From assembly GCA_000004985.1 (NCBI GenBank), contig GG738908.1: a stretch of DNA of 64,000 nt. One strand, 5' to 3'. The position numbers were made by a program, and so were the translations under genes. This DNA is from Naegleria gruberi. Taxonomy: Eukaryota. The number at the start of each line of letters is the position of its first letter. Within the stretch, counting starts at the first letter, position 1. This document shows, in pieces, positions 18,359-63,817 of this stretch. The notes under the pieces were generated by a model that was given only the letters and a program-made list of their open reading frames with translations, had not been told where the DNA came from and made no database searches.

Positions 18359-18408
18359 NNNNNNNNNNNNNNNNNNNNNNNNNNNNNNNNNNNNNNNNNN
18401 NNNNNNNN
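18359..18408. other. Assembly gap (50 N)
   Basis: A run of n flanked on both sides by the same ~900-bp sequence. Confidence 0.99.
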
Positions 18409-22712: not shown

Positions 22713-22768
22713 CTTATTCGGTTATGCGCATATTAACATTTATCTGGATTTCTGTCAATACCCATCTC

Positions 22769-25700: not shown

Positions 25701-25800
25701 NNNNNNNNNNNNNNNNNNNNNNNNNNNNNNNNNNNNNNNNNNNNNNNNNNNNNNNNNNNNNNNNNNNNNNNNNNNNNNNNNNNNNNNNNNNNNNNNNNNN
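22769..25800. other. Assembly gap (3032 N)
   Basis: A run of n. Confidence 0.99.
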
Positions 25801-36700: not shown

Positions 36701-39622
36701 ATCAATAGCGTAGAGATTGCAGGTCAGAGTAATCACAATCCAATGGTTAAGAATAATATTGTGCAAGTTTCAGAATCTGGTATAACTCAGACAATTTATG
36801 AAATCAGAGTTCAGGATGGAGATGCTTTGGATAACTCTAAACTAGATTCAAATTTCAATATTTATTACAGTAATTTCAATAATTACCATGGAAACTCTTT
36901 GGCGAATATCAATTTTATGGATAGAAGATTATCAAGCTACCTGTTTACTTCTGATTTTCATTTATGGAGAGCTCATATTCAATCTGATTACAACTCGTCT
37001 ATAACTGATCCAAAACTTGATTTCAATTTGAACATTGGAGAAGACAGTCCAGCTAGAAATACAGCACCTCTTCTTTCTGAAGTTTCTGAAGATTTCTATG
37101 GTAATTCAAGATCAGAAAACAATAATGACATTGGTGCCCTATTATTCACAACTGATTTGTCAAATTCTTCGTACTATCCTCCTGTAGTTGGAAGTTTATT
37201 ATTGAAGAGTGGTAAAAACGTATGCTCTGGAAATATGAGCTCGTTTGAAACTCCTAGAACCTACTATGTACATAATATTGAGGGTTCGGACACTGATTGT
37301 TTGGGAACTTTTGACATGCCCTTCAAAACTATTCAACAGGCACTCGCGGTAGCTTCTCCCTTCAGTAATATAACGATAAGGTACACTGGAGTGTCCTACA
37401 ATGAATCGTTATCTATCAAGACACCCTATTTGAGAATTTCAACATTTGAGAATGATCCATACGAGGCATTGATTCTTTCTTCAATTTATTCACCATCTAT
37501 TCTTCATACTTTGAGATTTGAATCAACTGCTTTCGGTTGTTCTCTTAGTAGATTACATCTTCAAGGAGGATATTTCTATACTCTTAAAGTAGATGCAGAT
37601 AATATTCAAGTAGATCGCTCAATTATTCACTATTGCGGTACTAAATGTGTGTTTGCCTTAAATGCTGATAATTTCACACTCACCAACAGCGAAGTGTATG
37701 ATTCTGGAATGAGAGATCCAAGCGAAGGTGAAGGAGTTCATGCGGTTGTTTCCCATAACTTTGAATGTAAGGACAACTATGTTCATGACATTACTGCCGA
37801 TGCTATCAAATTAGAAGGAGGGTCATCTCACGCAATAATTGCTGGTAATGCTATTTCTAATGCAGATAGAGGTATTCTAGTTGGTGGAAGAATTGATAAT
37901 TTGGATTTATTTGAAAAATCTAATACTCATCTTTATGAAACGTATAATTCTTCGGTTTATAATAATATTATTTCAAACACATTTGGAGTTGGAATTGCAA
38001 TGTATGGAGCTAAGCAATGTGAAATTTATTTCAATACCATTCTGAATACATGTATTACTAACACACAAGGAGCAGCCATTCATTTGGCTAGTACGAAACA
38101 TAGAAATTTAGTTATTACTCCAGTTGACTCCCTAGTTATTGTAAACAATATTGTTTATAATAGCGATCCAAGCAATGCAGGTGCCATGATTAGAATTGAT
38201 GAAGGTCTTGAGGGTTTTTCAGCATCCATCACTGGATCTGTCGTAATGAACAATAACCTGTATTATTCCAACAAATCATCCGTGTTTGTGGATGGAAGAA
38301 AGGCAACTAAATTTTCAGGAAACTTTAATATTTGGAAAACTCAAATCTCCAACTACTTTGGAAATGGAAACGAAGTCAACAGCTTGAACGTAGCTCCATT
38401 ATTAGATACTGATAATCTTTCTCCAAAGGGCTCTTCACCTGTGATATCTTCTGGACAAATTTCTTCAATAACTCAATCCATAACAAGCGATTTTTATGGC
38501 AATGTCAGAGATTCAATTAATTCTTCTGATATTGGTGCCATAGTGGGTGATGCTCTCATTGTTTCCAAATCAAAGCCAAGAACTATTCCACTGAATATTT
38601 CTAAGATTGCCCTCTCCAAAAGTTCAAACATTGTTAGATATCCTCCAAGCGGAAAGCAATCAACATGGTTTGTTCCTGGCTATACAACAGTTGACGATCC
38701 ATCCCTGTTTGATTTGTCCAATTGTTCTATCTATCCTTCTGATAATCCATGGAATCAAGATATTTCCAATCTACCTGTTCATCCTCGATCTGATGCCTTC
38801 ATTAATAATGTACCAAAGAAGTTTCTTCATGCAGACTTTGGAACGACATACGATGGTGCACTGAATGGTATTCCTTATGTAATTGTAACCAAAGATCAAG
38901 AAAAAGTTGGAATTACTCTGACTTCCTATGCTTCTGAATCTGATCCAGGTCCATATCCATTTCCAGAAGGAGCTCCTATTGAGGGAGGCCCTAATTCTAA
39001 TGGAGATCGACATATAATTGTATTGGAAAAGGATAGTTGTAAGCTGTACGAAACTTGGAGAACTTTCCCTATTTTGAAACAGTATCGTGAATCAGAGGGA
39101 GGAAACTTTTTCACAGCCGAATGTGGAGCTATTTTCGATTTGAAGTCAAACAATTTAAGACCACTTGGATATACTTCATCTGATGCGGCTGGTTTACCTG
39201 TTTATCCAGGACTTGTAAAGTATGACGAAATTGTTGTAAAGAAACAACTCAATCATGCTGTCAGATTCACAGTAATGACAAGTCAGAAAGCTTACATCTT
39301 ACCAGCTACTCACTTTGCCTCCTCAAATACGAATCCAAATATCATGCCAATGGGATTGAGATTGAGAATGAAGGCAACCTATGATTGTTCTCTCTTATCA
39401 GAGGAAATTCAAGTAATTTGCGCAGGATTGAAAAAGTTTGGCATGATTTTGGCAGACAATGGTGGAGATTTTTATGTTTCAGGATCTCCACATCCATTGT
39501 GGGATGATAATCACCTCAATGATATGAAGAAGATTCCATCTCTTGCCTTTGAAGTTGTCTACACTGGAAAGACATGTATTGATCCTAGTTGTAACACATG
39601 GAGAGATGAAATTATCAATTAA
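33782..39622 (+). CDS. Giant (1946 aa) protein with three tandem right-handed parallel beta-helix (pectin-lyase-fold) modules and a conserved ~330-aa C-terminal domain
   Basis: One uninterrupted ORF. Three modules each start with a NPFKTIKK / APFRSLAKA / MPFKTIQQAL ... (R)GG(I)Y motif. Each is followed by about 20 NxI/NNxI beta-helix rungs (IHHT/IHD motifs, FYE(E)T..Y.DP.QN..YY.A insertions). The C-terminal domain is GDRHIIVLEKDSCKLYETWRTFP...ICAGLKKFGMILADNGGDFYVSGSPHPLWDD. Confidence 0.8.
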   Translation: MYIDNWNEMNGQTFYEDDVLFVGFSGTSFEGRTLMRFSNLQGKLPVGAYISSASLDLTYVAWVKGCKIRVNYLNNTWVVAKKTGWRFRNYDQKLEWISAGGDVLSNSYSVMESGMSDDGNQIKSIALDPYIVQSWFDDNSKNNGVMISEVIGTTIKPTIFGGNSTISFRPRLTITYQLQPTKPPQYPMVLGLLPLRIFVQSKTVNCSQIDCGDDDTGSGAINAPFRSLAKAITFAQPNDIILLREGVHAGNVQITRRNITIQSYSNEKAIIASPVNDPSIAIALYFRRDSSYSTLRNVELVGGFDYAIRLESSIDWGGNNLKYGASNIVIENCKIHGSGYHLIKIDSLCENVNIRNNELFDAGKRVRTGGSAIVCYDTFMTRIQDNYIHHTMGAAVMIKSGARNSIIERNYINKIYGAGILVGFYETGEYFSDPSQNPLYYQAVNTIVRNNILNDISGAGIGLYSAKNTLILFNTIWKAAKDNQAGILINVVQTWVSNSYSPIVPCTNVTIMNNIIGTATERIIEIRTLTSYVDDSVVGGLEGNMNVSFNIYYSMKNANGVNGLFSDQRNTIGYVGGFSGWQTKYQDYGSVEGNPLIDPIAYYPTSTSNAIGKGMYIPSTISDYFGRPMKSKLVTIGALQFLNDGFEDDPTMKYSITNIIYNPSFNGTVPPKDVPTWAPPTTYRTIYVSATNGNDNSGNGTIVNPFKTIKKVTDSSFAKDNDIVIVRGGIYQEGAIRISSTNYTIKSYENEIVTIVSDINNGNILWGIKTFSKFVTIEGLEIVGSFYYGLMIDSSDVTIRKVKIHDTGSDCIKLSPFTKRISILQSEIYHCGKRKTYQAGNPNQDSASGDGIRCVNVDDVFISRNYIHDLTGTAIKTQGGGLRAIIERNLILNIGGLGITLGFYEETSYMDPTQNVYYYEAIEGLVRNNIIVNVQGCGVGLYASKNSRVLHNTIVSSALSMQVPILLAASPHTINSVEIAGQSNHNPMVKNNIVQVSESGITQTIYEIRVQDGDALDNSKLDSNFNIYYSNFNNYHGNSLANINFMDRRLSSYLFTSDFHLWRAHIQSDYNSSITDPKLDFNLNIGEDSPARNTAPLLSEVSEDFYGNSRSENNNDIGALLFTTDLSNSSYYPPVVGSLLLKSGKNVCSGNMSSFETPRTYYVHNIEGSDTDCLGTFDMPFKTIQQALAVASPFSNITIRYTGVSYNESLSIKTPYLRISTFENDPYEALILSSIYSPSILHTLRFESTAFGCSLSRLHLQGGYFYTLKVDADNIQVDRSIIHYCGTKCVFALNADNFTLTNSEVYDSGMRDPSEGEGVHAVVSHNFECKDNYVHDITADAIKLEGGSSHAIIAGNAISNADRGILVGGRIDNLDLFEKSNTHLYETYNSSVYNNIISNTFGVGIAMYGAKQCEIYFNTILNTCITNTQGAAIHLASTKHRNLVITPVDSLVIVNNIVYNSDPSNAGAMIRIDEGLEGFSASITGSVVMNNNLYYSNKSSVFVDGRKATKFSGNFNIWKTQISNYFGNGNEVNSLNVAPLLDTDNLSPKGSSPVISSGQISSITQSITSDFYGNVRDSINSSDIGAIVGDALIVSKSKPRTIPLNISKIALSKSSNIVRYPPSGKQSTWFVPGYTTVDDPSLFDLSNCSIYPSDNPWNQDISNLPVHPRSDAFINNVPKKFLHADFGTTYDGALNGIPYVIVTKDQEKVGITLTSYASESDPGPYPFPEGAPIEGGPNSNGDRHIIVLEKDSCKLYETWRTFPILKQYRESEGGNFFTAECGAIFDLKSNNLRPLGYTSSDAAGLPVYPGLVKYDEIVVKKQLNHAVRFTVMTSQKAYILPATHFASSNTNPNIMPMGLRLRMKATYDCSLLSEEIQVICAGLKKFGMILADNGGDFYVSGSPHPLWDDNHLNDMKKIPSLAFEVVYTGKTCIDPSCNTWRDEIIN

Positions 39623-42465: not shown

Positions 42466-45400
42466 TTATTGTCTCTTATATTTAATAATAAATTCAGGAT
42501 AACATTGACATTTATCATAGACAATGAATTCTCTATATGAATTAGTTGAAGTATTTGATTGACCAATAACACTATCATAAACTCTATTGTTACTTCCTGA
42601 AATTTCAGGTGGTCTTCTCTGATTATTCATCACTTGTTTTGTGAAATGAATTTGTCTTCCCATTACAACTCTACATAATAATAGAGTATATTCATTGGAA
42701 TGATCAGGTGTACAATATTGATCACTCTTTGAACAATATTCTGCAAAATAAATACCTGCTCCAAATAATCCATTTAAATTTGCAACTCTTTCATCAAATC
42801 CATGTTCTGCAATTGTATTCACAAATTCAGGTTTTGTTCCATGCCATAAATATTTTTCATTCATATTAGAATTTAATCCAATTGTTTTCATCCATTCAAA
42901 TGATTTTGATGTTTTTGAAATATTTTCAGTTTGAACTTGAAGTGAATTAATTGAATCTTGATATGAAATTAAATGATTCATTCTTGATTTGAATGAAGTG
43001 AAAAGTGTTGAATTTTCAATTCTTGAAACACTTGAAACAATTAATTTAGAATAATTAATTCTTGATAATTGATCTCTTCCAGATCCAAGTGTTGCAGAAT
43101 TACACGATACATTCATAATTTCTTGCATTGTATCTTTTAAATATTGTGTAACATCAACAGTGTAATATCTTTTCGAATAAGTTTGGAATGTGTTTCTTTT
43201 CCAATAACTTGGAAGTGAAATTGTTAATTGTTTGGATTTTGATTCTTTAATTTCCTTTTCCATCTTCTCAATTTCAATTTCTTTTTGTTTCAAATTTTGT
43301 AATTTCTTTGAAATTTCTTCACTTTTCTTTGACTTTGAATTTGAAAATTGTTTCTTTTCCTTTTCTAGATTTAAAATTTCAATTTTCAAATTTTCATGAT
43401 TTTTTTTCATTTTCAATTCAAATTCATTCAATTGATTCTGATAATCTTTCAATTCCTTTGATTGATTTTCCATTAATTGAACATGTTTCTGAATTTTAAC
43501 TTCATCTAATAATGTTCCTTTCAAAAAGAATTCATTTGCAAGTGCATCAGATGCAAATGGTCTCAAATTTACATCTGAATTCAAACATTCATCACATAAA
43601 TTATTCAATGATTTGAATTGTTTCAATTCTTGTTCTTTCATACAATTTTTAATTGTTTTACCAAATGCAAACATGTCAGATTTAAATGTTGCTGATGTTT
43701 TTCCATTCACTAATTCAGGTGCTAAATAATCCAATGTACCAGCAATTCCACTTGTTCTTGTGAATAAATTCATTGTTCTACTTGTTATATCTAAACTAAT
43801 ATCAAAATCACCTAAAATAATTGGATAATATTCTGTGATCATNNNNNNNNNNNNNNNNNNNNNNNNNNNNNNNNNNNNNNNNNNNNNNNNNNNNNNNNNN
43901 NNNNNNNNNNNNNNNNNNNNNNNNNNNNNNNNNNNNNNNNNNNNNNNNNNNNNNNNNNNNNNNNNNNNNNNNNNNNNNNNNNNNNNNNNNNNNNNNNNNN
44001 NNNNNNNNNNNNNNNNNNNNNNNNNNNNNNNNNNNNNNNNNNNNNNNNNNNNNNNNNNNNNNNNNNNNNNNNNNNNNNNNNNNNNNNNNNNNNNNNNNNN
44101 NNNNNNNNNNNNNNNNNNNNNNNNNNNNNNNNNNNNNNNNNNNNNNNNNNNNNNNNNNNNNNNNNNNNNNNNNNNNNNNNNNNNNNNNNNNNNNNNNNNN
44201 NNNNNNNNNNNNNNNNNNNNNNNNNNNNNNNNNNNNNNNNNNNNNNNNNNNNNNNNNNNNNNNNNNNNNNNNNNNNNNNNNNNNNNNNNNNNNNNNNNNN
44301 NNNNNNNNNNNNNNNNNNNNNNNNNNNNNNNNNNNNNNNNNNNNNNNNNNNNNNNTGTTATCACTTTCAGTGTAAATTCCTTCAATTTCAATAATATTTG
44401 AATGTTTTAACTTGTTTGTAATTNTCAATTCCTTTTCTAAACCTTCAATTGATTTCTTATCTTTTAAATTATATTGTTTAATTATATGTTTTTTATCATT
44501 TAAATCAATTCCAATAAAAACATTATGATTTCCATTCCAATTTTGAATTGGTTTAATTTCTTTAAACATTTCAGGTGTCATTTCATTAATATTTAAATTA
44601 GATAATAAATCACTTGCCATGTTTGATTTAATATCAAATCCAATTGTCGTTAATTGAAGAAATTTCATTTTAATTTCATTTAATTTTTGAATATTTTCCT
44701 TCAAATTAGATTTTAATTCAATTAAATTAAATTCTTTAATTTGAATTTCATCTTTAATATCATTCATTTCATCTTCATTATTAACATGTTTCAATTCATC
44801 TTTTAATCCTTCAATATCTAGATTTAACATATTTAAATTTCTTGTAATTCTTGTTTTTTGTCTTTGAATGGTTTTAAATTGTTCAGATAAATTTGAATAA
44901 TTATTCATAATATTTATAATATTTTGTAACATTTCATATTTTTCAATTATATATGGAATTGTTTCTTGAATTAATAATTTACAATTTAATTCTTGTTTTT
45001 GATAATAATTATATAATTCTAAAATATTCATTTGATCATTGTCTGAAATTAATACTTTACAATTTGATAATATATTATTTAAATATAATTCTTCTTGTTC
45101 TGATAATTCCATTGCTTTTTGTAAATTATTTGAAAATTGTGTCAAATCAATTTCATTACAATAATTGATAGAGTTTACAATATTTGATAATTGTTTTGTA
45201 ACTTGTTGTAATATTGTTTTAGTTTCATTTCCAAATTTATTATGAGTTGGAACTATATTAATACTGTTTATATTCTTAATAGATTGTTCACTCATTTCAA
45301 TACTGTCAAATAATTCTTGTTTAATAAATTGAGAATTAAATTCATTAAATAATTCTAATTTTTCACTTAATACTTCTAAATAAGATTGTAATTTAAATAA

Positions 45401-49838: not shown

Positions 49839-50858
49839 TTAGAAAATTCTGAATTGTAAATTGGTGCTATTAGTCTTTTTGTTGTTGTTATTATTATTAT
49901 TGTTATTGTTATTGTTGTTTGGCAATGGTACGAATTTCATAACAATAGCAAAGATGCAACCACCCAAGATGGCCAAAGCAACTAACAAACACAAAACAGC
50001 ACAACACTTATCAGTTTGAATTCTCCTCATGAAACTGGTAATTTCCTTTTGAGCTCTTTTCACATTGCTTCCGAGAGCATCCATTTCTTCATCAATTCTC
50101 CTCAATTGGTCTCTTTGTTGTCTCAGTAAATCAGCAGAATCAGTTGCCAAAGCAATAGTTTCCTCTGATTTCTTATTCAAACGATCGATAATGTCCAAAC
50201 ATTCCTTCTGAGTTGAAAATACTTCAGAAAATAATTCCTTTTCAATTTCATCGTGCCTTTGACGTTGTTCCTGTGTCAGATTGGCATTTCCCTTGTACAT
50301 ATTTGTCACATCAGCATCACTGTTTCTCTTAACTTCCACAACATCATCTTCTTCAATGGCATTGGATGAATTCTTTCCTTCATTCAATTTGTTTGCAAAT
50401 GTAAAGAAACCTTCCTTTTTACGAACACCACCACTATTTGTTGCTGATGATGATGAATTTGATGTTAAATTGGAATTTGTTGATTCTAAAGCAGAGTTAT
50501 TTGATGATTTACCATCATTCAACCCCTTTGCTTTAGTTTCAATAAATGTTTTTGATTGTTTGTAACTTGCTCTCAACTTGGCAATAATTTCCTTGTGTTT
50601 CTTCTTGGTATCGGATACTTGATTTTCAACGGATGGATCATTCTTTGTCAAGTTATTAATCTTGTTATATAATTTCCTACATTTTTCCAATAATTCTTCA
50701 ATAGTTTCGGATAGTGTGGAAATTTGTGAGGAAATAAAATTTGGATCCGATTGATTGGTAATGTTTAGACGACGAAGAGTGGTGATGTTTTCTTCAATCT
50801 TTGACTCGACACTTTCCAACTCGTGTGTGTAGGTTGAAAGTTTTTCGAGACTGCTCAT
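49839..50858 (-). CDS. Syntaxin-like Q-SNARE (t-SNARE coiled-coil homology domain plus C-terminal TM), with a poly-Asn tail after the TM
   Basis: A 339-aa ORF. The SNARE motif is LRQQRDQLRRIDEEMDALGSNVKRAQKEITSFMRRI. The TM is CCAVLCLLVALAILGGCIFAIVM. A 14xN tract follows, encoded by an (AAT/AAC)n repeat at 49878..49925. Confidence 0.7.
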   Translation of the reverse strand: MSSLEKLSTYTHELESVESKIEENITTLRRLNITNQSDPNFISSQISTLSETIEELLEKCRKLYNKINNLTKNDPSVENQVSDTKKKHKEIIAKLRASYKQSKTFIETKAKGLNDGKSSNNSALESTNSNLTSNSSSSATNSGGVRKKEGFFTFANKLNEGKNSSNAIEEDDVVEVKRNSDADVTNMYKGNANLTQEQRQRHDEIEKELFSEVFSTQKECLDIIDRLNKKSEETIALATDSADLLRQQRDQLRRIDEEMDALGSNVKRAQKEITSFMRRIQTDKCCAVLCLLVALAILGGCIFAIVMKFVPLPNNNNNNNNNNNNNKKTNSTNLQFRIF

Positions 50859-52472: not shown

Positions 52473-55400
52473 TTAAGCAGTATTTTGAGTTCTTTGATTT
52501 GTTTTCTTGTGGAATAAAACTGTTCCGTAGTGTTGATTACCCATTACAATATTGCCATGATCCATTGGTATTTCATCTTTTCCAGTAAGTGTGGGCACAA
52601 TACTAACCATGCTTGGTATTGTTCTGTGTTTATCACCCCAACCTTTCTTCAGCTTGGTACCTATGTAAAATAAGACAAATATTGCCACCAATATAATCAC
52701 CAAAACAACCACAACAGAAATAACTGCTCCTATGATAATGGAGGCAAATTGAGCGTTTGCATCCACAACAGAACAATCAGATCCCAAAAATCCTGATAAA
52801 CATTGACATACACCATCCAAACAAATTCCATTCAAACTGCAATGATTTGGACAGGTAACATTTGCACAGGAAGCTGGGTTGGATTCACATGCATCAGCAG
52901 CAACTGCATTAGCACTAGCCATTGCAAAGGAAGTGTCACCAGTTGAAATTACATCGAACAAACAAGTCTGATAGAAAGTTCCAGTTAAACCAAGATTTGT
53001 GCAAATCTTTTTAGCAAGTTCGTTCAAGGTTTGATTTTCGGATGTGGCAGAAATAGCTGGTTCAAAATCGACAATGTTAATTGAGTTGTACGTTTCATCT
53101 GCTGTATAAATGAAATAGGATTCGCTTTGTGGCACTCTCCAGCTCTCTCCAAATCGTTTATGAATATCTGTGGCAGATGGATCATTCAATACAAGACCAT
53201 TCCTCAAAGTAAATTCATTGGATGCATTACCATCTAGTGTTCCATATAAACCTCCCTTTTCAGTTCCTGTAAAGTTAGTGTCCTTTGCAGGTGAGAAGGA
53301 GACACTAAGCCACTTGATTCCATCATTTTTCAATCTGAGCTGGCCTGAAAAGATTCCAGAAAACTTGATTAAAATTACTTTGAATGGAATGGAAGTGTCG
53401 TTCACCTTGTAAGAATTCACTGGATCCTTCTCTTCAACAATAGTAGCACCTCCATTCAATACATAGACTGGTTGTGAAGGTGGTTTGTAAGCGAGAGCAG
53501 TTTGTTGAATTTGTGGAATTTCATTAGTATCAGGATCTCTTTGATATTTGATTTGATCATAAAAGTTTTGTAAATCTTTTGGTATTTCAAGTGTTGCATT
53601 ATTTTCCACTGCTTGAACATTAACAACAGTTTCCTTGAGGTCTACAACTTGTCCATTGACATATACTACCACATCATTCGTTCCATCTGAAGAAACTTCA
53701 ACTGTATCAGTTCCACTTTGGAATGAAATAGCTTTCATGCAAGAGGTCTTGGAGTCCTTAGTACATTTAAGCAATCTTCCTTGCATGGTAAATTCAGTTA
53801 GATTTGTACAAGTAAAACTCTCCCAATGAATTGAAAGAGTACAACAGACCATCCACAGTTCTCAAGTGGATATCCCCAAAGGCAAGTACTCTGTTGAAAA
53901 GTTCAAACTCTTCAATCTTGTTGCACTTTGCTCCTGCAAAACCTGGGAAGCAACTGCAGATATTTGGGCCAACACAGGTTCCGTGCTCTGAACACCAGTC
54001 TTTATGAGCACAATGGAATTTAGAACAGTCATCGCCCATCCAGCCCCATCTACAAACACAATCATTCAATCCAACACATTTTCCTCTCTTTGCTCCTCCA
54101 CAATTTGAATAATTTGCACACAGTGAGTTGTCAAAAGTAATACAATCCAACTCTGGTGGAACATATGTAGCATCTTGGACGAAGATTGTTGAATACGAGT
54201 CAACTTTCAAGTACACCATGTTTGATTTGCAATCATACGATGTTTCTCCATCAGTTCTATTGGATGGGGATAGAATATATTCCTTATTTGGGCTAACAAT
54301 GTTAATAGAGATAGGGCCCCATGCACTGAACTTGAATCCCAAACTTATACCATATTTTCCTAACCAAGATATTTCAATCTTCTCTGGGGTACCAACAACT
54401 CCTAGCCATTCAACAGTATAACTGTTTGTGATATTATCCAAATATAGAGCTCTGTACTGCCATTCTCCTCCAGTTGTTAATTCTCCCAACAAATTTTCAG
54501 TTTGAAGATTTGATGTAGAGTTAATTCTTGTTTGATCGACAGAGTTTGTAATAGCTGGTGAGACAAACTCCAACTTGGACCAATTTACAGTCTCGTCACA
54601 CATGTATGCATTCCATGCTGAAACGTAAAAGCACTTATCAAAATCTACCATAATATTGTTTGCTGGAATGACTCTAGAATTGACTCTATTGAATCCGGCA
54701 GGAACAGTAATGTTATAGGATAAGCAACCATCTAGATCGATAATAATAGAGTGTTTGTAATTATCGTGTAGACCATTACTCTTACCAACCAATAGATATA
54801 TGACGTTAGAGTTGTGGAACTTTAAATTCTTGACGAGGTAATCGCCTTGAACCATTCTTGCCATCTTATCATTCTTAATACTAATAGCATTTGCTTTTCT
54901 GTTGCAATTATCAACAAAATTGAAAAACTCAATTCCGTCCAAAGTCATTGGTTTTCCGTCTCTGTGAAATTCTACACCAACAATTGGTTGGGTTCTGTAA
55001 TTTGCATAGGATCTGTGATAGGTAGAATTTGGATTTTTGTAATTACCACAAGAATAACAACCATAAGCACAACTACCAGTATTTCCCTTATTTCCAGACT
55101 CTCCAATGAAAATGCAGTCTTTGGCTGTGAACTTGTCTTGGTTGATCACATTGAAAGTATAACCAATAGGATTATCTGCATAGATACTATCCTTCATGGC
55201 TATTTCTCCTTGCACATAGGCAAATTGTCCTTGTACCTTATTTCTATAAGAGACGAGTTTTGTAAATTCGGCTACGGCCCAAGGATTTTCGGCACTACCA
55301 CACCTAATCTTTTGGAAGATTTCTAATCTAGGATCGGTACAAACAAAGAAATCGTGCCATAAATTGAGACCATGCTGTCTATTACTATGAACTGTGTTGT

Positions 55401-57868
55401 TGTAAAATTTTCCCCAATACCATCTGCTGGGTTGGATGTAAGGAGACATACTTGGACCTAAACTGTAAGGTTCTAATTGATACCAAATTCCATGACCTTC
55501 ACTACCAGCAGCTCTATTGTTGATAAGAGTATTGTGAGGATTAGTCATCCAGAATGTTGCTGGGGAAGCATCATGATTGGTAGGACTTAGAATAGCTCTC
55601 GAGTCTGGGATGGCTTTTGTTACAAGTCCCAAACAATTCTCAATAATATTTCCCTCTTCAACTGCATCTTCCAAAAAGAAAGTATGTCCAAAAACATTGT
55701 AAGCAACAATACCCTCAGCGTGTAAGTTATTCACGCCGTGGAATGTAATTCCTCTCTGATAGGTGTCGTGGATTGATAACTTTTTAACATAGGAAGTTGA
55801 AGCATTGTTAAACAAGTGGAAGTGAACTGGATATCTGAAAAATGTGTAAATAAATTGAATTCAATTTTTGAATAACTTACCTTCCCAAAGTTCCTGCCTG
55901 ACCACATCTCCTAAATTCTGCATTATTCAATCTGATGTACTTGGCTGTTCTCATGTAAATAGTGTGACATCCGAACAAGCTGTTATCACTACTTTCATCT
56001 CCTTGCACCTTAATGTTGTGTGTCAATAAGGCGACTTCAGCTCTCTGGTCAAACTCTACAACCGTACCATCTGCTTTTGTGTAGTATTCAGTTTCAGCGT
56101 AGTGACCATAAACAAGTGGTGAGTGCAATTCAAAAGCTGTTCCACTAATTCTTCTGGTGATAAATCTTCTCTCGGCCTGATACAAGTCATAATCTGTCGA
56201 TGCAATCACAATCTCATCACCCACATCCCACAATGTCTCTTGAGCGAGGTAAATGATGTTATCTCCAACTTTTGATGATTGTTTCAATAAAGTCCAAGTT
56301 ACCTCATGTCTCTTTCCATGCAAACTCAAGACGCCTCCACTCATCACAGCAATATTCTTGTTACCAACACCCTTATCACTCAATGGTGTCTTCTCTCCAT
56401 ACAGAGTGATTGTTGCTTTGTGTTGATATGGTGTTGACTCGTTACCGATTTGGAGAGAACCAGTAACAACCATACTGTTCATTTGTAATTGAAGATCAAG
56501 AGTTTCATTTCCGTAATCATTATTATCAAATATGAGACATCCATAAACCATGACTGTATCCAATTTAGGTGGGCTGACATCTAGAATAATTGTCTTGTCA
56601 GATGGAATTGTCACAAATGAAGCAGATGCAAGAGTTTTACAGGTTGTGTTCTTATAACTTGTTTTACATATTGGATTGTTTTCAACATAGTAGGTTGTTG
56701 AACAATTTTCAGACATTGAATCATTGGAACAATAAACGAAAGAGAAGGAACATGAAGGCATTGTAAAACTTGTAGTATTAAGCCCATTTAGCCCCATCTC
56801 ACATAATGAACAATTTGTTCCACTATCTGTAAAATTGCAAATGTCAGTTAAATTCATAGCCACTCTTTCTGTACAATTTACCTCAGTGTCATTAAATGAA
56901 TCACAAATGGTAAGGGAATAGCTACTTTCGCATTCGACAATTTGCTGAGTTGAAGGACATTTTACAGTTTCATTTGATACGGTGCTATAATTCGAATAGG
57001 TAGAGTTCACTAATTCTGGGAAATATTCTGACCATTTCACAGTCTCTGAAGGACAATTATCACCAATTCCAGTTCCATAAGGATCTGTTGTGGTTTTGGT
57101 AAAAATTATTGCTTGTTTTCCAACTCCATAAGCATTATATCCTTTAAATTTGTTATAGGGAAGAACTCTGAAACTGTATGTTACATTCTGATCCAAATTA
57201 AATCTAGTGTATGTTTCAGCTTGGTGAGTCTTGTACATTACAGTTACATATCCCAAAGAATTGAGAGTTGACATTTGTATTTGATAGTAACAAATAACAT
57301 TTGTCGTATCATTTGATAATTTCCACCTCAGCTCAATACTAAAATAAGTTGGTATTGCCACAAAATTTTCAACAATTGAAATGTTGGCAGCTGTTGAAAA
57401 TCTATTAGTAATATTTCCATCAGATGGATCTGACAAATCCGAGAGTAAATACCTCCTTGGAGCTCCCTGTCCAATCGACCAATAACAACAAGGGTCTCCT
57501 AGTTCATCACCATTTGTTAGACCATCTCCATCTGAGTCCATCAAGCAAAATGTTTCATCCCAAACATACTTATTCTTTGCAAAGTCCTTTGCAAACTTGG
57601 TCATTGTCCCATTCTTGAAGAAGATATTAGTAAAGAGTTGTGAGTCAGGATAGATTGCACCATTTGGTAGTTTTGTGATATCAAAATCTGCATATAAACT
57701 CGATAAGGGTTTTGAATACGTCGAAGGCAATTGGCTCACCAATAGAAGAATATATACAATGATAGAAGAACAATACAAAAACCATGATATCTTATCATAT
57801 CGGCTTGTTCTTATTGAGGAGTAAGATGATGAATAGTCCGAGTAGGACCTCTGTTCTCTCCTCATCAT
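52473..57868 (-). CDS. Large type-I membrane glycoprotein. It has a signal/anchor, a TSP3-like Ca-binding DxDxDG motif, an FN3-like segment, a G8-type domain, a PbH1/beta-helix region (CEMIP/TMEM2/fibrocystin-like), EGF-like Cys modules, a TM and a short tail. 3 exons (1759 aa)
   Basis: Exons are 57868..55881, 55834..53850 and 53779..52473. Intron 1 runs GTAAGTTATTC...TTTTTCAG (46 nt). It splits ...RCGQAGTLG|R from YPVHFHLFNNASTSY. Intron 2 (70 nt) has a GTCTGT donor and a CATGCAAG acceptor. Total CDS is 5280 nt, or 1760 codons. The TM is IIIGAVISVVVVLVIILVAIFVLFYI. The EGF-like part is CPNHCSLNGICLDGVCQCLSGFLGSDC. The family call rests on the 'GRYPVHFH' junction and the GG / G8-like glycine pattern, which I recalled rather than searched. 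Confidence 0.65.
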
Positions 57869-58209: not shown

Positions 58210-60814
58210 TTAAGCAATATTGATGGAGGATATTTCGATTTTATCGTTCAGATGAGAAATTCCTTTAAGGGATTTTTGAAGAGTGGTATGATAATTGTGG
58301 AGAGCCTGAGCCAAGTTTTGACTCTTCTGATTGGTGAGAGTATCAAGAATAGTAAGCAAACGATTCGTAATAATTTGATCCTCTGGATACTTATTCAAAT
58401 GATCTTGAAGAATATTGACCGATTCTTGGATTCGGTCCAGAACTTGAGAATCAGACATCGAAGAAACAGTCTTTGGATCAAAGATTGCAAAGGCAGCTTC
58501 AAAATCTTTGAACTTTTTGTTTGCTTTTTGCTGTTCCAGTTCATACATCCATTCTGATAGGTATCAATTTGTAATGAATTGAATTAGTGAAATTATTAAT
58601 TACTAACAAACTTACCATCTTTTTCATAACTATTCTCCTTAATGACTTCATAGACAACTGTTGGAGTTTTGCCTTCGCTATTCTCCAAAACAAATCTTTC
58701 GACAGGTCTCACAACAAATGCAGAAGTGGCCTCAGTGCAAACACTCTCACTATCTGCAAGGATCTTACAACCAAGTGAACAACCTAGAATGGAGAGGTTC
58801 TTTGAATTGGTAACCATTGGACCGACGATTGAGTAATATCTCAAATTGTTTGTTCCCAAATTACCCACATTGGCCATTCCAGAGCTAATACCGATAGAAT
58901 AACTTGATAATTTACCAAGGTTGTCCAAAACTTTGGAAACCTTGAGAGCACTTTCCATAGCTGCCAAGTTTTGTTTCTTCTTACAATCAGCAAATGAGAG
59001 TTGGAATTCTTCAACTGATAGGATTTGCAAATCAGCTTGCAAACTCTTTGCCAAAACACTCAATCCTGATGCTACCTTTGCAAATAAATTCGTTACTTCC
59101 AAAGGATTTAACTTTCCAAATTCATTCAAATGAATGTAGACGATACTGACTGGCTTGATGGAAAGACCCAATTTGAATAATCCACCACCAGATTTCAAGT
59201 CATGTTTGGAAGATTTCAGAGAGCTGTGGGCTGAGCTTCTATTAGAGAGTGAATGTCTGCTCTCTTTCATGCTTTCATTATTCTTATCCGTTTGTGATTG
59301 CTCCTGTTCAGCCTTCTCCATATTTCTCAACTGATTGAAAATTGTCTCTGGTAAGAAACTCTTAAATTCATTCAACCAATTCACCATTTCGTGTAAGTCT
59401 TCATAAATTCTATTGACTTCCCTAAATTTACTTGAAATAAAGTTGACATTCTCCAAATCAAACTTCTTAATGAGGAAGAATTGACTTTCCAAATATCTCA
59501 ATGGTTGAGTTATTAAATATCCGATACCAATACTGAGAATCAAACCAACAATCACCACTGCTACTGCCACACCAACAGATATACCAGTGTTAATATTGGT
59601 AGTCTTGGCAATATCACTCTTGTAAACAACAAGGAAAACATTCCATCTGATATTTTCTAAAGAGAAGGATAATCTGGAAATTAGATAATCGACTCCCTTA
59701 CTAGTGAATTCAAAATCTGAGGGAGAAGATGTCAGATTTGAGTACTTGGCAGCTATTCCTGACATGAGAGCTCCAGAATCTTTGGCAATTAGATCAAATA
59801 TCTTGACACGAGACTTGCTGTCAGCTGCTGTGGTGTTAATCGAGCCTCCAATGACGAAGTCATTCGTTTCTGAAACGAGTACATAACCGTCTCCAATTAG
59901 AGTTAATGTTTTAAGGAACTTTTCAATATTCAACAATGACAAGTTGACCTTTGAAATACCAATTGTCTTTTTTGTTCCGTTCAATGCCAGCAAGTATGGA
60001 TCATACAATTTTACAGAATAATAAATACAAGTTGTTGAATTGACAACAGTGTAAGGCAATCCATAAACCCTATCCGTTTGATACAAATCAAAAAAGTTGA
60101 AACTTGTAACCCAATATGCCAATGAAGTAATTACAAAAGGAGTTGTCTGATTGACCACCAAATTAATAAAAGATCCATCAGTTTCATTTGCATACCATTG
60201 TTCAACTCCAATATATCCCTTCGGTTTGACATAATAAGTGAACGATTGTTTTGGTTTTCCATCGGGAAAGATTGTCAAATTGAAATAGGTATTCACCTCA
60301 TCTGGAAAGAACAACCCAACAGCTGATGGATAGAATATCTGATTCTTGGAAAATAAGTAACTCAAATCAGGTTTTCTTCCAATGAGTCCTCTATTGAAAT
60401 CTTCAGCCAAAACTCGAGCCAAGTGAGCTGAAGGAGAAATTTCTCCCTTCAAGAAGGCCATTACATTCTCTCCAACTTTATGGATTAAATCAGTAGAAAG
60501 TGAGTCCAATGCTTGAGTGGAACCAATATACGAAGCTAACCAAATGAAGAAGGAACAGGTAATGAGGAGAATGATCATAATGATAATGATGGTCAATCGC
60601 ATGGAGAACCAACCTTCCATTTTGGTTGGAATTTTTGGTTTGACCTTTTGTCCAGAGACGAGTTCTTCATTTTCATGATTGAGGCCAGCAGAAGAACCCT
60701 ATTGTTGATTTCAGTTTCGAATAGTGCAATTTGTAGTGCATTTAGTCAGTTGCTTTGAAATGTATTGTTACTTACAGAAAACTCTGAAGGTGATGCAGGT
60801 GCAATTTTAGACAT
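58210..60814 (-). CDS. Two-TM receptor with ~310-aa extracellular sensor-like domain and intracellular cyclase-homology-like domain that looks catalytically degenerate; 3 exons (821 aa)
   Basis: Exons are 60814..60776 (MSKIAPASPSEFS), 60698..58616 and 58553..58210. The terminal-exon splice ...SYEKD|gtaagtttg...cctatcag|EWMYELEQQ... keeps the frame. Total CDS is 2466 nt. The topology is a cytosolic N-terminus, TM1 (LTIIIIMIILLITCSFFIWLASYI), an ectodomain, TM2 (ISVGVAVAVVIVGLILSIGIGYLI), then a class-III cyclase fold signature (SIGISSGMANVGNLGTNNLRYYSIVGPMVTNSKNLSILG). The metal-binding Asp residues are absent (SIVYIHLNEFGKL in place of the F.D..GFT motif). Confidence 0.6.
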
Positions 60815-61443
60815 TTCTTTGATATTGAATCTCTAAGACATTAGAACTAAACTTCATCTGCCAAATTGTTAAGTGACAGCAATCACTAACCATCAATACA
60901 GAGATACTTCTCTTACATCATTCAAAATTGCCTTGAACAGTAGTGACAATTTTTGGCGCCAATTCGAATGGCCATTTTCGTTTTGCATCTCGAAATAATG
61001 TGAAGTGAAGTGATGGGAAATATTTACAACTAAGGTTCACCCGCGTCGATACAATCAATATTCGCCTTAGTATGGAGATGAATACATTTTGTTATTGAAT
61101 TGGAGCTCTGGATAAATTGTTTTGTGGGTTACTATTAACATATTTTAATTATTTGTTATTCAATAGTTTCGCGCCAAGCTAAAACCGTTACATAAATGAA
61201 AATCTTTAGATAAAATATTTTGAAAATAAATAAATTTATTATTAAAAGAATAAAAAATAGCATCACAGGACGGACTTAGGCCTTCCTTCGTGAAAGAGGC
61301 AACTCCACGTATGTTTTTGATAACAACAAGACTTTAACATTTCCTTTAACACAACCAATATTCACAATTGGGGAATTTTTATTGTTTAAATTATAGACTA
61401 CTTGATGATGGACTATTTACATGGAAGATATACACTAGGAAAT

Positions 61444-61764
61444 TTAAGGAATGGTGGTGATTGTTGGCTGTCCTATTGATGTCGTATGAATATGATCAAT
61501 TGGATCCTTGGTAAATGAGGATGATTTTCTCATCATGATTGCCAATATCAACATTCCAGCAATACCACTCAAACATACCAGAAAACTACCAATGGCAAAG
61601 ACAATCTCTGCAGCTCCAACATTGTATGAAACTTGAGAGTTTGGTGAATTGGTAATGGTAATCAAACCAAATATCATCAAGCAAATGAAGGCTAAACAAG
61701 TGAGTGATGAAGTTACTCCAAAAGCAATCATCATTAATTTACTACGTTCTGCGTCGAGGGCCAT
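61444..61764 (-). CDS. Hypothetical small membrane protein (106 aa, 2 TM)
   Basis: A clean ORF with two hydrophobic helices and no recognisable family. Confidence 0.35.
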   Translation of the reverse strand: MALDAERSKLMMIAFGVTSSLTCLAFICLMIFGLITITNSPNSQVSYNVGAAEIVFAIGSFLVCLSGIAGMLILAIMMRKSSSFTKDPIDHIHTTSIGQPTITTIP

Positions 61765-61931
61765 TTTTTAATATTGGGTTTGAAGGATATTTCATTGAGG
61801 ATGTAGTTGGATTTATCCAAAATTGCATTGTTGCAATTTGGAAAGTATCCATTTATTGATTCTTCTCATTTCTGTGGATGTCACGAAATCGTCATCTGGT
61901 AAATTTCCAATTTTGGTACATGATTTTCAAG

Positions 61932-63817
61932 TTATTGATCTTTCACATAGGCGACCCAATTGGTGTTGTAATCGTTCCAATTAGATTTGTTGTTATGTTT
62001 TCTTATTAATCTGCCATATGCTCTATCATACATGTCCCACAAAACTTCATGCTTTTTGGCATCCAACTTGTCATAATTCATAGATTTGATAAATTCCTCA
62101 AATTCAATCTTTCCCACACGGTAATATTTTGGTTTGAGTCCCAATTTGAATAGCAAGTATCTGGACAACTTCATTTCACCAATGGCAGTACACAACTTAC
62201 AAGGCGACTTGATGACATTGGCCAAGTGAAATTTGAGCGACATATCCTGAATACCCTTCTTGGTTTCATCTGACATTCTCTGTTTGAAATATTCGTTAAA
62301 CTTTTGATCGTCATCACAATAAGGTTTGATATGTTGTGCCATCTCTGTTGGTGATTTAAAATCATGAATGCTAATGAAACTATCTTTTGGAAAACCATAC
62401 TCATTGATATTGGGAGCACCTCGATAGATTGACACTAGCTTTCCACCCAATCCCAAAGGAGTGAAACCTTCAAAGAACTTTTCAGTAATGTAATCATCCA
62501 ACATGCTATTTTCAAATGCTAGATAGAATTTGCAACTTCTTGCCAATTCTGCAACCTTTCCTCCTTGTTCATGAGCATTTCTTCCACATCCTTTCCAAAA
62601 CAGCAGAATATTAGCACTTGATTCAGGTATTTGAAAATCAAAGTCAACTTACCACCATATTGTCTAACTGGAAGGACATTGCTAATTTCCTTCACAACAT
62701 CCATTCTCTCCTTGACACAATTACTGATGAATGCACAAATGCAATGTGGAGGAATTCTAGAACTATCTCTAAATTCAAAATCCATTTTCGTATAGAAATA
62801 GGTTGTCCAAATACTACACTGTGCACTCCAACACATTGTCATGTCCATGTGAGATTGGTCATTTCTGGCATGTGGTTCAATTTCTCTAAGAGCATTAGGT
62901 TCGTTACAGAGAAATACATTGATTGGTCGCATGGCCAACCAAGTTTTCAAAGCAAATTCCTTATCAAATTGTTGTGACAATTCAACACTTGACAAATCTG
63001 AATTTGATTTTACAAAATTGTCAATTTCCTCTTGGACTTTTCTTTCCTCCTCAACTTTTTCCAATCCAAGACCTCTATCTCTATATTCCAAATGTTCAAT
63101 ATTGGCATCGAGACTAATTCCTTCTGCCTTTCCACTTGTGAAATAACTTCTCGAGTCTTCATATGGAAAAACTTGACATGCAGTTTGTTTACAGTGAGCT
63201 TGATTGTACTTTCTAAAGAAACCAAACCAATTCGGTCTCGTAGTCTGCTCCTCACCGAAACCATATTGAATTAACTGGGTTTTTACACTTGGATCGAATT
63301 TGTAGCCACCTATGGATTGAGTATTGGTCAACTTGTCCAAATACCAACCATAGGTTCCTTCCTTTGACTGTTCATAGGACAACATGTTTTGTGCCAATCT
63401 AAAGAATGGAGAATGGCTCTCTAGTAGTGGATTCTCACTTAACTCTTCTAATTCAGTTATTTTCAATGAAGGTTGTTGTTCGAGTGAAACTTTCTCTGGA
63501 TGAATCGAAGTCGAATCCACTCTACTCTTTCTACTCAATATGAATACGATGAAAACAACGTAGAAAGATGAAAAGATGAATAGAGAGGCTTTCCAAGGTG
63601 TAATTTTCATTTTTTTGTTTCGATAAGTGATAAGGTTAATGTTCCAACCTCCATGGAGGATTGTAAACAGTTGAAAATAGGGAATGTTATTCTGGATTTT
63701 TGACTTTTGTTCTATGGAGGATACATGGTCAGAAACAGACTCGTCTATTGAGAGTTTGGATTCCAAAGAGGTCTTGGAAAGTTTTGGTAAGTTCTTATTC
63801 GAGTTGAGTTCTGTCAT
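61932..63817 (-). CDS. Glycosyltransferase family 10 (alpha-1,3/4-fucosyltransferase), type-II membrane topology, 2 exons
   Basis: Exons are 63817..62653 and 62590..61932. The intron has a GTAAGTTGAC donor and a TTTTGGAAAG acceptor and is 62 nt. Total CDS is 1824 nt. The signal-anchor is ASLFIFSSFYVVFIVFIL. The catalytic motifs are AFISNC...R....L......V..YGxC and CKFYLAFENSMLDDYITEKFF, the GT10 signature. Confidence 0.8.

What the first reader, a model, noticed from the sequence alone, without database searches (positions are those of the whole stretch)
58210..60814. Receptor with extracellular sensor domain and a cyclase-homology domain lacking the catalytic aspartates (probable pseudo-cyclase); the small downstream ORF is its last exon
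ORF 58210..58548 joins the 674-aa ORF in frame through a GTAAGT...CAG intron. A 39-nt first exon adds a cytosolic N-terminus. The product has the two-TM, extracellular-sensor topology of the germination-type adenylyl cyclase ACG of Dictyostelium discoideum. Its intracellular domain keeps the class-III cyclase beta-sheet signature (IGISSGMANVGNLG...YSIVGPMVTNSKNL). However, the metal-binding F-x-D-x-x-G-F-T motif is replaced by YIHLNEFGKL. It therefore looks like a catalytically inactive cyclase-homology receptor, possibly a regulatory or heterodimerising partner. Whether the ectodomain is CHASE or Cache type cannot be decided by eye.
Basis: partly seen in the sequence, partly recalled or inferred. 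Interest (0 to 1): 0.55.

Follow-up and report, generated by a model that had tools for sequence, protein, structure and literature searches.

The report
Naegleria dCache receptor with dead cyclase domain
This is a three-exon gene of the amoeba Naegleria gruberi for a membrane receptor with a bacterial-type outside sensor (double Cache) and an inside domain that has the fold of a cAMP/cGMP-making enzyme but has lost almost every catalytic residue; it belongs to a large, conserved and undescribed family of such "dead cyclase" receptors in Naegleria and related protists.

Summary
On the minus strand, exons 60814-60776, 60698-58616 and 58553-58210 join in frame into an 821-aa protein. Both introns are GTAAGT...AG (77 and 62 nt). 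The last junction (..KD|EWMYE..) lies at the same position in three homologous genes of N. lovaniensis and N. fowleri.

The window is Naegleria gruberi. The deposited gene model wrongly fuses this gene to the upstream fucosyltransferase.

The protein reads: short N-terminus, TM1, 314-aa ectodomain, TM2, a very conserved juxtamembrane helical segment, a disordered Ser-rich linker, a cyclase-homology domain (CHD), and a 113-aa C-terminal domain encoded by the last exon.
- The ectodomain is dCache, not CHASE (top 50 Foldseek hits).
- The CHD fold is class III cyclase (best match CyaB, E 7e-11).
- Catalytic positions: metal Asp1 is His536, Asp2 is Glu576, substrate Lys is Ile572, Asn is Thr643 and Arg is Asn647.

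So it can supply neither half of an active site. It is very probably not a cyclase, and could only poison an active partner.

The family is large. Asp1 is absent from all 150 best relatives (Naegleria, Willaertia, prokinetoplastids). A sister orthologue pair shows purifying selection on the CHD (omega 0.14). The actual output is unknown.

The parts
60776..60814 (-). Exon 1: ATG plus 12 codons (MSKIAPASPSEFS), followed by a GTAAGT donor
   Evidence: The peptide matches homologue N-termini of the form M-[STPA]-K-[IV]-x-P. No RNA evidence.
60699..60775 (-). Intron 1, 77 nt, GTAAGT...TAG
   Evidence: An in-frame TAG sits at 60701-60699 directly before exon 2, and the conserved coding stretch 60698-60621 has no ATG.
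58616..60698 (-). Exon 2 (aa 14 to the first base of codon 708), which contains the 674-aa ORF
58554..58615 (-). Intron 2, 62 nt, GTAAGT...CAG, phase 1
   Evidence: The same position and phase are seen in the N. lovaniensis and N. fowleri homologue loci L001, L002 and L003. The deposited model P0001 uses it.
58210..58553 (-).
60528..60599 (-). TM1 (aa 47-70), preceded by the Lys-rich stretch KVKPKIPTK
   Evidence: Hydropathy scan. It forms a continuous helix with the dCache stalk in the AF2 model.
59586..60527 (-). Extracellular dCache sensor domain (aa 71-384), with 8 N-glycosylation sequons
   Evidence: AF2 model with pLDDT 80 and pTM 0.72. The Foldseek PDB top 50 are all dCache ligand-binding domains, at E 6e-11 to 9e-8. 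Pfam dCache_1 hits 8 of 14 family members, best 3e-6; the target itself scores only E 0.44. Sequon count.
59511..59585 (-). TM2 (aa 385-409)
59328..59510 (-). Juxtamembrane helix-loop-helix segment (aa 410-470; ITQPLRYL...KFDL...EV..IY.DLHEMV.WLNEFKSFLPE..FNQL). It is the most conserved part of the family and is HAMP-like in position and register, but not proven to be HAMP.
   Evidence: Mean column identity is 76%, with 22 invariant columns. There is no HAMP hit in Pfam or the PDB. hhalign against five HAMPs is in register but weak (E 0.016, probability 2.8%).
59181..59327 (-). Ser/Lys/Glu-rich linker of variable length (aa 471-519), predicted disordered
   Evidence: pLDDT 31-48. It is gapped and length-variable in the family alignment.
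58617..59180 (-). Degenerate class III cyclase-homology domain (aa 520-707). Key positions are H536 (metal Asp 1), I572 (substrate Lys), E576 (metal Asp 2), S636 (specificity Asp/Thr), T643 (Asn) and N647 (Arg). The conserved motif is G625-N-L-G628 ... R633.
58213..58551 (-). C-terminal domain of about 113 aa (aa 709-821) that opens with the invariant EWMYELEQQK.N..FKDFE.AF. Its fold was not determined.
   Evidence: It is conserved in the family. There are no significant Pfam or PDB hits. Second-tier relatives show only sub-threshold TPR-like hits.

Best explanation
The locus encodes an 821-aa type-III-topology receptor of Naegleria gruberi (N-in, two TM segments, C-in).

**Shown**
- The extracellular loop folds as a double-Cache (dCache) ligand-binding domain.
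- The cytosolic part consists of a highly conserved helix-loop-helix juxtamembrane segment, a disordered linker, a class III cyclase-homology domain and a C-terminal domain encoded by the last exon.
- The CHD keeps the fold and the G-N-L-G...R core typical of CyaB/Cya2-like bacterial cyclases.
- It has lost five of the six canonical catalytic or substrate residues. The sixth, the second metal Asp, is Glu.

**Inferred**
- The protein does not make cAMP or cGMP.
- Class III sites are built across a dimer. The Asp pair comes from one chain and Lys, Asn and Arg come from the other. This protein lacks both halves, so it can neither form an active homodimer nor complete a site with an active partner.
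- It most likely works as a receptor pseudoenzyme. Ligand binding to the dCache dimer repositions TM2 and the juxtamembrane helices. The CHD dimer together with the C-terminal domain then acts as a ligand-regulated docking, nucleotide-binding or allosteric module rather than as a catalyst.
- Purifying selection on the degenerate CHD in sister genes, and the breadth of the family, argue that this non-catalytic role is real and old.
For: - **Gene model:**
- **Organism:** 100% identity to an N. gruberi protein.
- **Topology:**
- **dCache fold:**, with Pfam dCache_1 in 8 of 14 members.
- **CHD homology:** the family profile hits only class III cyclases in the PDB (6sir, 3r5g and 5oyh at about 2e-5). 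The CHD part of the AF2 model has pLDDT 85-93. All top 50 Foldseek hits are cyclases, best E 7e-11 with TM 0.77. The second-tier relative P0076 passes the Pfam Guanylate_cyc cut-off (40.7 bits against 21.9).
- **Residue mapping:** direct alignment to CyaB and transitive alignment through P0076 give H536, I572, E576, T643 and N647.
- **Family-wide degeneracy:** among the 150 best of 4786 relatives, the Asp1 column is never Asp, Asn is kept in 17 and Arg in 8. By contrast G-N-x-G is kept in at least 128 of 145 and R/K633 in 141 of 145.
- **Selection:** N. fowleri P0006 against N. lovaniensis P0007 gives omega 0.165 overall, 0.143 in the CHD, 0.075 in the ectodomain and 0.108 in the juxtamembrane segment.
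Against: - No activity, expression or interaction data exist for this protein, so inactivity is inferred from residues only.
- Glu576, and Asp in most paralogues, keeps one acidic metal ligand.
- The conserved GNLG...R core could still bind nucleotide, so some chemistry is not excluded.
- The target itself gives no Pfam Guanylate_cyc hit even at E<=10. The CHD assignment therefore rests on profile and fold evidence.
- The disordered 50-aa linker between the juxtamembrane segment and the CHD makes rigid transmembrane coupling to the CHD doubtful.
- The dN/dS test used a paralogous orthologue pair rather than the target, and dS is about 1, which is near saturation.
- The output partner is unknown.
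Confidence: 0.6

Rival explanations
1. It is a dominant-negative or regulatory subunit. The dead CHD heterodimerises with one of Naegleria's many active class III cyclases and silences or tunes it in response to the dCache ligand.
For: Class III CHDs act as dimers, and the dimer-forming fold is kept. Naegleria encodes at least 81 cyclases that could serve as partners (PMC9928731). Precedents exist in heterodimeric cyclases that carry one degenerate site, namely mammalian AC C1/C2 and sGC alpha/beta (general knowledge).
Against: The target lacks both half-sites, so it can only inhibit and never complete a site. No active cyclase with the same architecture appeared among the 150 nearest relatives. 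A family this large, with its own conserved ectodomain and juxtamembrane segment, looks like a set of autonomous receptors.
Confidence: 0.2
2. It is still an enzyme. The CHD uses relocated or non-canonical residues (Glu576, His536, Glu539, Lys646) to make a cyclic nucleotide or another product.
For: An acidic residue is kept at the Asp2 position in 77 of 137 aligned relatives. The GNLG...R nucleotide-binding core is strongly conserved. Residue 'migration' is known in some pseudoenzymes (PMC10211241, abstract listed).
Against: The Asp1 column is never Asp, and it varies across R, K, N, H, T, Q and E. The neighbouring +3 column is not conserved either. Lys, Asn and Arg are all lost. No set of alternative catalytic residues is conserved across the family.
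Confidence: 0.07
3. It is a decaying relic, a recently inactivated cyclase gene on its way to becoming a pseudogene, with no function.
For: Catalytic residues are lost, and the target itself has no Pfam CHD hit.
Against: The 821 codons and both canonical splice sites are intact. The same substitution pattern is shared by Naegleria, Willaertia and prokinetoplastid relatives. Omega is 0.14-0.17 in sister genes.
Confidence: 0.03
4. The deposited 1272-aa model is right: a fucosyltransferase-receptor fusion protein that lacks TM1.
For: The deposited protein P0001 has that structure.
Against: - It needs a 1.66-kb intron, whereas the family's introns are 60-170 nt.
- Its donor is a cryptic GTAAGT inside the GT10 ORF, which otherwise runs 88 more codons to its own stop at 61932.
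- It deletes the conserved N-terminus and TM1 present in the full-length homologue models.
- It skips another ORF.
- The N. lovaniensis homologue has no fucosyltransferase neighbour.
Confidence: 0.03

Closest known systems
Bacterial dCache-containing class III adenylate cyclases, for example M. tuberculosis Rv2435c, and the single 'bacterial-type adenylate cyclase' with a Cache domain reported for Naegleria (Upadhyay et al. 2016, PMC4822843)
   Same: The domain order is the same: TM, dCache, TM, juxtamembrane helices, CHD. The ectodomain has the dCache fold.
   Different: The CHD here lacks Asp1, Lys, Asn and Arg. A disordered linker separates the juxtamembrane segment from the CHD. There is an extra conserved C-terminal domain. 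The Cache domain is too divergent for the Pfam threshold (10.5 bits against 45). That paper counted one Naegleria Cache protein. The family here shows several N. gruberi genes with this ectodomain.
P. aeruginosa CyaB (3r5g) and Synechocystis Cya2 (2w01) catalytic domains
   Same: They are the best sequence-profile and fold matches. They share the V-G-N-[FI]-G...R..Y..(I/V)G core.
   Different: Those enzymes keep FSDIRGFT/SDLRGFT, the GD in the beta2-beta3 hairpin, and VNLASR or its equivalent. The target has H536, E576, T643 and N647.
Dictyostelium discoideum ACG
   Same: A sensor domain outside the membrane sits ahead of a C-terminal class III CHD.
   Different: ACG's sensor is CHASE and its CHD is active (general knowledge; ACG as an osmosensor is cited in PMC9928731). 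Here the sensor is dCache and the CHD is degenerate.
Degenerate half-sites of heterodimeric cyclases (mammalian AC C1/C2; sGC alpha1/beta1)
   Same: These are CHDs that have lost part of the catalytic set but keep the fold and the ability to dimerise. sGC chains are among the fold hits (3uvj).
   Different: In those proteins each chain keeps one complementary half, so the heterodimer has one active site. The target has lost both halves.
Receptor pseudokinases such as HER3 and ROR (functional analogy only; PMC13259870, listed)
   Same: A transmembrane receptor whose enzyme-fold cytosolic domain lacks catalytic residues yet is conserved.
   Different: The fold and ancestry are unrelated, and no signalling partner is known here.

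Membership tests
Class III nucleotidyl cyclase homology domain (Pfam PF00211 Guanylate_cyc) | CHD fold (beta-alpha-beta-beta-alpha-beta core) | tested here: met
   The CHD part of the AF2 model has pLDDT 85-93. The Foldseek PDB top 50 are all class III cyclases, best 3r5g_B at E 7e-11 with TM 0.77.
Class III nucleotidyl cyclase homology domain (Pfam PF00211 Guanylate_cyc) | Sequence-profile membership | tested here: inconclusive
   The target has no PF00211 hit at E<=10. Six of 14 family members have weak hits, best 4.5e-4. The family profile against the PDB returns only cyclases, at about 2e-5. Second-tier relatives pass the Pfam cut-off, for example P0076 at 40.7 bits against 21.9.
Catalytically competent class III cyclase | Two metal-binding Asp (beta1 F-x-D-x-x-G-F-T; beta2-beta3 G-D) | tested here: not met
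   Asp1 is His536 and Asp2 is Glu576. The Asp1 column is never Asp in 150 relatives.
Catalytically competent class III cyclase | Substrate-specifying pair (Lys plus Asp/Thr for ATP; Glu plus Cys for GTP) | tested here: not met
   The Lys position is Ile572, and the second position is Ser636.
Catalytically competent class III cyclase | Transition-state Asn and Arg (V-N-x-A-x-R) | tested here: not met
   Thr643 and Asn647. In the family, Asn is kept in 17 of 150 and Arg in 8 of 150.
Catalytically competent class III cyclase | cAMP or cGMP synthesis in vitro | not testable with these tools
   This needs a biochemical assay.
dCache_1 extracellular sensor | A long stalk helix plus two tandem PAS-like alpha/beta modules between two TM helices | tested here: met
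   AF2 model with pLDDT 80 and pTM 0.72. The Foldseek top 50 are all dCache ligand-binding domains, for example 6ior_A with TM 0.71.
dCache_1 extracellular sensor | Pfam PF02743 gathering score | tested here: not met
   The target scores 10.5 bits against a cut-off of 45 (E 0.44). Eight of 14 members are hit, best E 3e-6.
dCache_1 extracellular sensor | A defined ligand-binding motif (for example the amino-acid-sensing motif) | not tested
   No reliable residue-level alignment to solved dCache domains was obtained.
CHASE-domain cyclase (Dictyostelium ACG type) | CHASE ectodomain | tested here: not met
   No CHASE family appears in the Pfam scans. The fold search gives dCache only.
HAMP domain | A helix, a connector of about 14 residues and a second helix after TM2, with profile similarity to HAMP | tested here: inconclusive
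   The topology fits: helices at aa 382-424 and 439-459. There is no Pfam or PDB profile hit.

The most novel reading that the evidence does not exclude
The degenerate CHD is not dead but repurposed. The conserved G-N-L-G...R core and the acidic residue at position 576 would bind a nucleotide and carry out, or sense, a reaction other than canonical two-metal cyclisation. On that reading, this Discoba-wide family of dCache receptors would be a new enzymatic or nucleotide-sensing output class. A more likely and less radical version, at about 0.4, is that the family is an old class of receptor pseudo-cyclases that signal purely through protein-protein contacts.
Probability: 0.07. Interest if true: 0.8.

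Novelty: new variant of a known kind. Interest (0 to 1): 0.42.

Why it matters
Naegleria is known for a very large cyclase repertoire that is usually counted as sensing capacity. If a sizeable, conserved part of that repertoire cannot make cyclic nucleotides, those counts overstate cAMP/cGMP signalling. They would also hide a separate receptor class. That class has this target and several further N. gruberi members, with relatives in Willaertia and free-living prokinetoplastids.

The result also shows that dCache sensors are more common in this eukaryote than the single case reported from Pfam-level searches. It gives a clean natural test case for what a fully degenerate cyclase-homology domain does. 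Finally, it corrects a fused gene model in the reference annotation.

Tried and rejected
- **Single-sequence searches.** Pfam and PDB searches with the target alone gave nothing for the CHD. Family profiles and fold prediction were needed.
- **Word-indexed homologue searches.** The single-sequence and profile versions returned the same 14 Naegleria proteins. Only the exhaustive representative search revealed the wider family.
- **HAMP.** There is no Pfam or PDB profile support, and hhalign is weak. I left it as 'HAMP-like, unproven'.
- **C-terminal domain.** The PDB profile search gave only chance-level hits (calmodulin and designed helical repeats, E >= 0.02). The TPR-like hits in second-tier relatives are below threshold.
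- **CHASE.** Rejected.
- **Synteny test of the fused annotation.** The N. lovaniensis homologue sits in a different neighbourhood, so this was uninformative except that no fucosyltransferase lies beside it.
- **A complementary active paralogue.** None of the 150 nearest representatives has F.D..GFT or G..VN.A.R.
- **Literature.** Searches for pseudo-cyclase or degenerate CHD families in protists found nothing specific.
- **Long overlapping ORFs elsewhere in the window.** They are artefacts of assembly gaps.
Full report
**Identity and gene model**

The window is Naegleria gruberi. The spliced product is 100% identical over 92% of its length to a deposited N. gruberi protein, P0001.

On the minus strand, the segments 60814-60776, 60698-58616 and 58553-58210 join into a 2466-nt open frame of 821 codons. 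Both introns begin GTAAGT and end AG, at 77 and 62 nt.

The last junction (..SYEKD|EWMYELEQQK..) has three lines of support:
- The deposited model uses it.
- The residues around it are invariant in the family.
- An intron lies at the same codon and phase in the N. lovaniensis P0003 locus (GATG|GTAAGT...ATAG|AATGG) and in the N. fowleri P0006 and N. lovaniensis P0007 loci.

Some automatic models of homologues read through this intron or stop just inside it (P0008 'DGKFSIRIVFYLCK', P0012 '..RDGK'). This again marks the site.

The 39-nt first exon rests on comparative evidence:
- An in-frame TAG lies immediately upstream of exon 2.
- The 26 codons between the acceptor and the first ATG are conserved with homologues but hold no start codon.
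- MSKIAPAS resembles homologue N-termini such as MTKVVPTS and MPKISPET.

I could not consult RNA data.

**The deposited model is probably a fusion artefact**

P0001 (1272 aa) joins the upstream GT10 fucosyltransferase to this gene. It uses a 1.66-kb intron from a GTAAGT inside the fucosyltransferase ORF (about 62199) to 60536.

Four points argue against it:
- The fucosyltransferase ORF runs 88 further codons to its own stop at 61932.
- The Pfam GT10 match extends past the cryptic donor.
- The jump deletes the conserved N-terminus and TM1.
- The family's real introns are 60-170 nt.

**Architecture**

| Segment | Residues | Evidence |
|---|---|---|
| TM1 | 47-70 | hydropathy |
| Ectodomain | 71-384 | 8 N-x-S/T sequons, against 3 in 412 cytosolic residues |
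| TM2 | 385-409 | hydropathy |
| Juxtamembrane segment | 410-470 | 76% mean column identity, 22 invariant columns |
| Linker | 471-519 | variable Ser-rich, pLDDT about 31 |
| CHD | 520-707 | see below |
| C-terminal domain | 709-821 | conserved, no significant match |

*Ectodomain.* The AF2 model of aa 40-415 has pLDDT 80 and pTM 0.72. It shows a long stalk helix followed by two alpha/beta modules. Its 50 best Foldseek matches in the PDB are all dCache ligand-binding domains of chemoreceptors and histidine kinases, at E 6e-11 to 9e-8. Pfam dCache_1 hits 8 of 14 family members, best 3e-6. The target scores only E 0.44.

*Juxtamembrane segment.* This is the most conserved part of the family. It has HAMP-like topology and register, but no significant HAMP similarity.

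It opens with the invariant motif EWMYELEQQK.N and has no significant match to anything known.

**The cyclase-homology domain**

Alone, the target gives no Pfam Guanylate_cyc hit. The homology is nevertheless solid:
- The family profile retrieves only class III cyclases from the PDB (6sir, 3r5g and 5oyh at about 2e-5; 22 hits, all cyclases).
- The CHD part of the AF2 model has pLDDT 85-93.
- Its 50 best structural matches are all class III cyclases, led by P. aeruginosa CyaB (E 7e-11, TM 0.77).
- More distant relatives of the family pass Pfam's own threshold (P0076 at 40.7 bits against 21.9).

The catalytic positions were mapped in two ways. One was direct profile alignment to CyaB. The other was a transitive alignment through P0076, which aligns to CyaB, Cya2 and a rhodopsin-guanylyl cyclase across strand beta1.

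| Canonical role | CyaB context | Target residue |
|---|---|---|
| Metal Asp 1 | FFSDIRGFT | His536 |
| Substrate Lys | IDKFVGD | Ile572 |
| Metal Asp 2 | IDKFVGD | Glu576 |
| Specificity Asp/Thr | | Ser636 |
| Transition-state Asn | VNLASR | Thr643 |
| Transition-state Arg | VNLASR | Asn647 |

What is kept is the core V-G-N-L-G-T..L-R-Y-Y-S-I-V-G. CyaB (VGNFG) and Cya2 (VGNIG) share it.

**What this implies**

In class III cyclases each active site is built across the dimer. The Asp pair comes from one chain, and the Lys, Asn and Arg come from the other (established knowledge of the family). The target has lost both sets.

It therefore cannot form an active homodimer. It also cannot complete a site with an active partner. 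If it heterodimerises at all, it can only inhibit. It overstates the second, which is a conservative Glu here and Asp in most paralogues. It understates the overall degeneracy.

**Family and selection**

The word-indexed searches found only 14 proteins. Twelve are from named Naegleria species, one from a JGI metagenome and one from a Logan assembly.

The exhaustive profile search found 4786 representatives at E<=1e-3, with 1105 at <=1e-10 and 98 at <=1e-30. Roughly the first 50 align over the full length. The ones I looked up come from these sources:
- further N. gruberi paralogues (D2VSW7, D2VLN0, D2W0Y1, D2V8E7)
- N. fowleri
- Willaertia magna
- metagenomes

Weaker full-length relatives come from the prokinetoplastids Apiculatamorpha spiralis and Papus ankaliazontas, and from an MMETSP transcript.

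A second tier shares only TM2, the juxtamembrane segment and the CHD. Some of these proteins carry N-terminal ankyrin repeats.

None of the 150 best has a canonical F.D..GFT or G..VN.A.R motif. The column counts are as follows:
- Asp1 is never Asp. It is R, K, N, H, T, Q or E.
- Asp2 is D in 56, E in 21 and N in 18.
- Asn is kept in 17 and Arg in 8.
- G-N-x-G is kept in at least 128 of 145, and the following R/K in 141 of 145.

For an orthologous pair of a sister gene (N. fowleri P0006 and N. lovaniensis P0007, 78% identical), Nei-Gojobori analysis gives the values below.

| Region | omega |
|---|---|
| Whole protein | 0.165 |
| Ectodomain | 0.075 |
| Juxtamembrane segment | 0.108 |
| CHD | 0.143 |
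| C-terminal domain | 0.272 |

With dS near 1, these numbers are rough. They still clearly indicate constraint on the degenerate CHD. This argues against a decaying relic.

**Mechanism, and how sure**

*Shown.* The gene structure, the topology, the dCache fold, the CHD fold, the residue substitutions, the family-wide pattern and the selection in sister genes.

*Inferred.* The protein does not synthesise cAMP or cGMP. It acts as a receptor pseudoenzyme in which ligand binding at the dCache dimer is relayed through TM2 and the juxtamembrane helices. The CHD dimer plus the C-terminal domain then serves as a regulated docking, nucleotide-binding or allosteric module.

*Weak point.* The disordered linker does not suggest rigid coupling between the juxtamembrane segment and the CHD. 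The juxtamembrane segment may itself be the main output.

*Rivals.* A dominant-negative partner of active cyclases (0.2), non-canonical catalysis (0.07), a relic (0.03), and the deposited fusion being real (0.03).

**Comparison with what is known**

Naegleria's large cyclase complement is known, with at least 81 cyclases reported in PMC9928731. Upadhyay et al. [quoted passage not shown] The same paper identified a dCache domain in the M. tuberculosis adenylate cyclase Rv2435c.

Partly degenerate CHDs are textbook cases (AC C1/C2, sGC alpha/beta). My searches of the held library found no description of a fully degenerate, receptor-type CHD family in protists. That is absence of evidence only.

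UniRef already labels the N. fowleri and N. lovaniensis homologues 'Guanylate cyclase domain-containing protein', so the domain itself is not new.

I rate this a new variant of a known kind. The interest is moderate for the single gene and higher for the family.

Noticed in passing
window 60536-63817 (minus strand): The deposited N. gruberi protein P0001 (1272 aa, named 'Fucosyltransferase' by UniRef) fuses the GT10 fucosyltransferase gene to the receptor. It does so through a 1.66-kb intron from a cryptic GTAAGT at about 62199. The fucosyltransferase ORF actually continues 88 codons to its own stop at 61932-61934. The model is probably an annotation artefact.
   Followed up: yes
window 61444-61764 (minus strand): A 106-aa ORF with hydrophobic stretches (MALDAERSKLMMIAFGVTSSLTCLAFICLMIFGLITI...) lies between the fucosyltransferase and the receptor. 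It has no Pfam hit, and the fused model skips it. It may be a small membrane protein gene or may be noise.
   Followed up: partly
window 52473-57868 (minus strand): Three consecutive long ORFs directly downstream carry Temptin_C, fn3, G8, CEMIP beta-helix, EGF, VWD and RGM_C domains. They are probably one multi-exon gene for a CEMIP/TMEM2-like secreted or surface protein.
   Followed up: partly
window 15544-16658, 18359-18408, 22769-25800, 43843-44355: These are runs of N (assembly gaps; 4711 N in total). They produce spurious long overlapping 'ORFs' on both strands, for example 22724-25816 (+) and 22755-25973 (-).
   Followed up: yes
window 59328-59510 (aa 410-470) and the same segment in relatives P0002-P0158: The juxtamembrane segment (..ITQPLRYL..IKKFDL...F.SS.F.E....Y.DLHEMV.WLNEFKSFLPE..FNQL) is more conserved than either the sensor or the CHD, at 76% mean column identity. 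It marks the start of the module shared with the second-tier relatives. No known domain matches it significantly.
   Followed up: partly
relatives P0053, P0117 and P0133 (JGI metagenome contigs of 25-45 kb): These relatives have several N-terminal ankyrin repeats ahead of a Cache or PDC-like sensor region and the degenerate CHD region. IMG names them 'ankyrin repeat protein/class 3 adenylate cyclase'. The source organism is unknown.
   Followed up: partly
relative P0038 (N. gruberi D2W0Y1, 890 aa): This family member is named 'N-terminal Ras-GEF domain-containing protein' by UniRef. It aligns to the family only from profile position 231 onward. It may be another fused gene model or a genuine RasGEF-N fusion.
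   Followed up: no
window 2255-6841, 7582-10290, 28924-32007, 33782-39622, 49839-50858: Other large ORFs in the window carry ordinary eukaryotic domains: DOCK-C2, F-box-like, a protein kinase with Chlamydia-PMP-type repeats, a right-handed beta-helix protein of 1946 aa, and a SNARE.
   Followed up: partly
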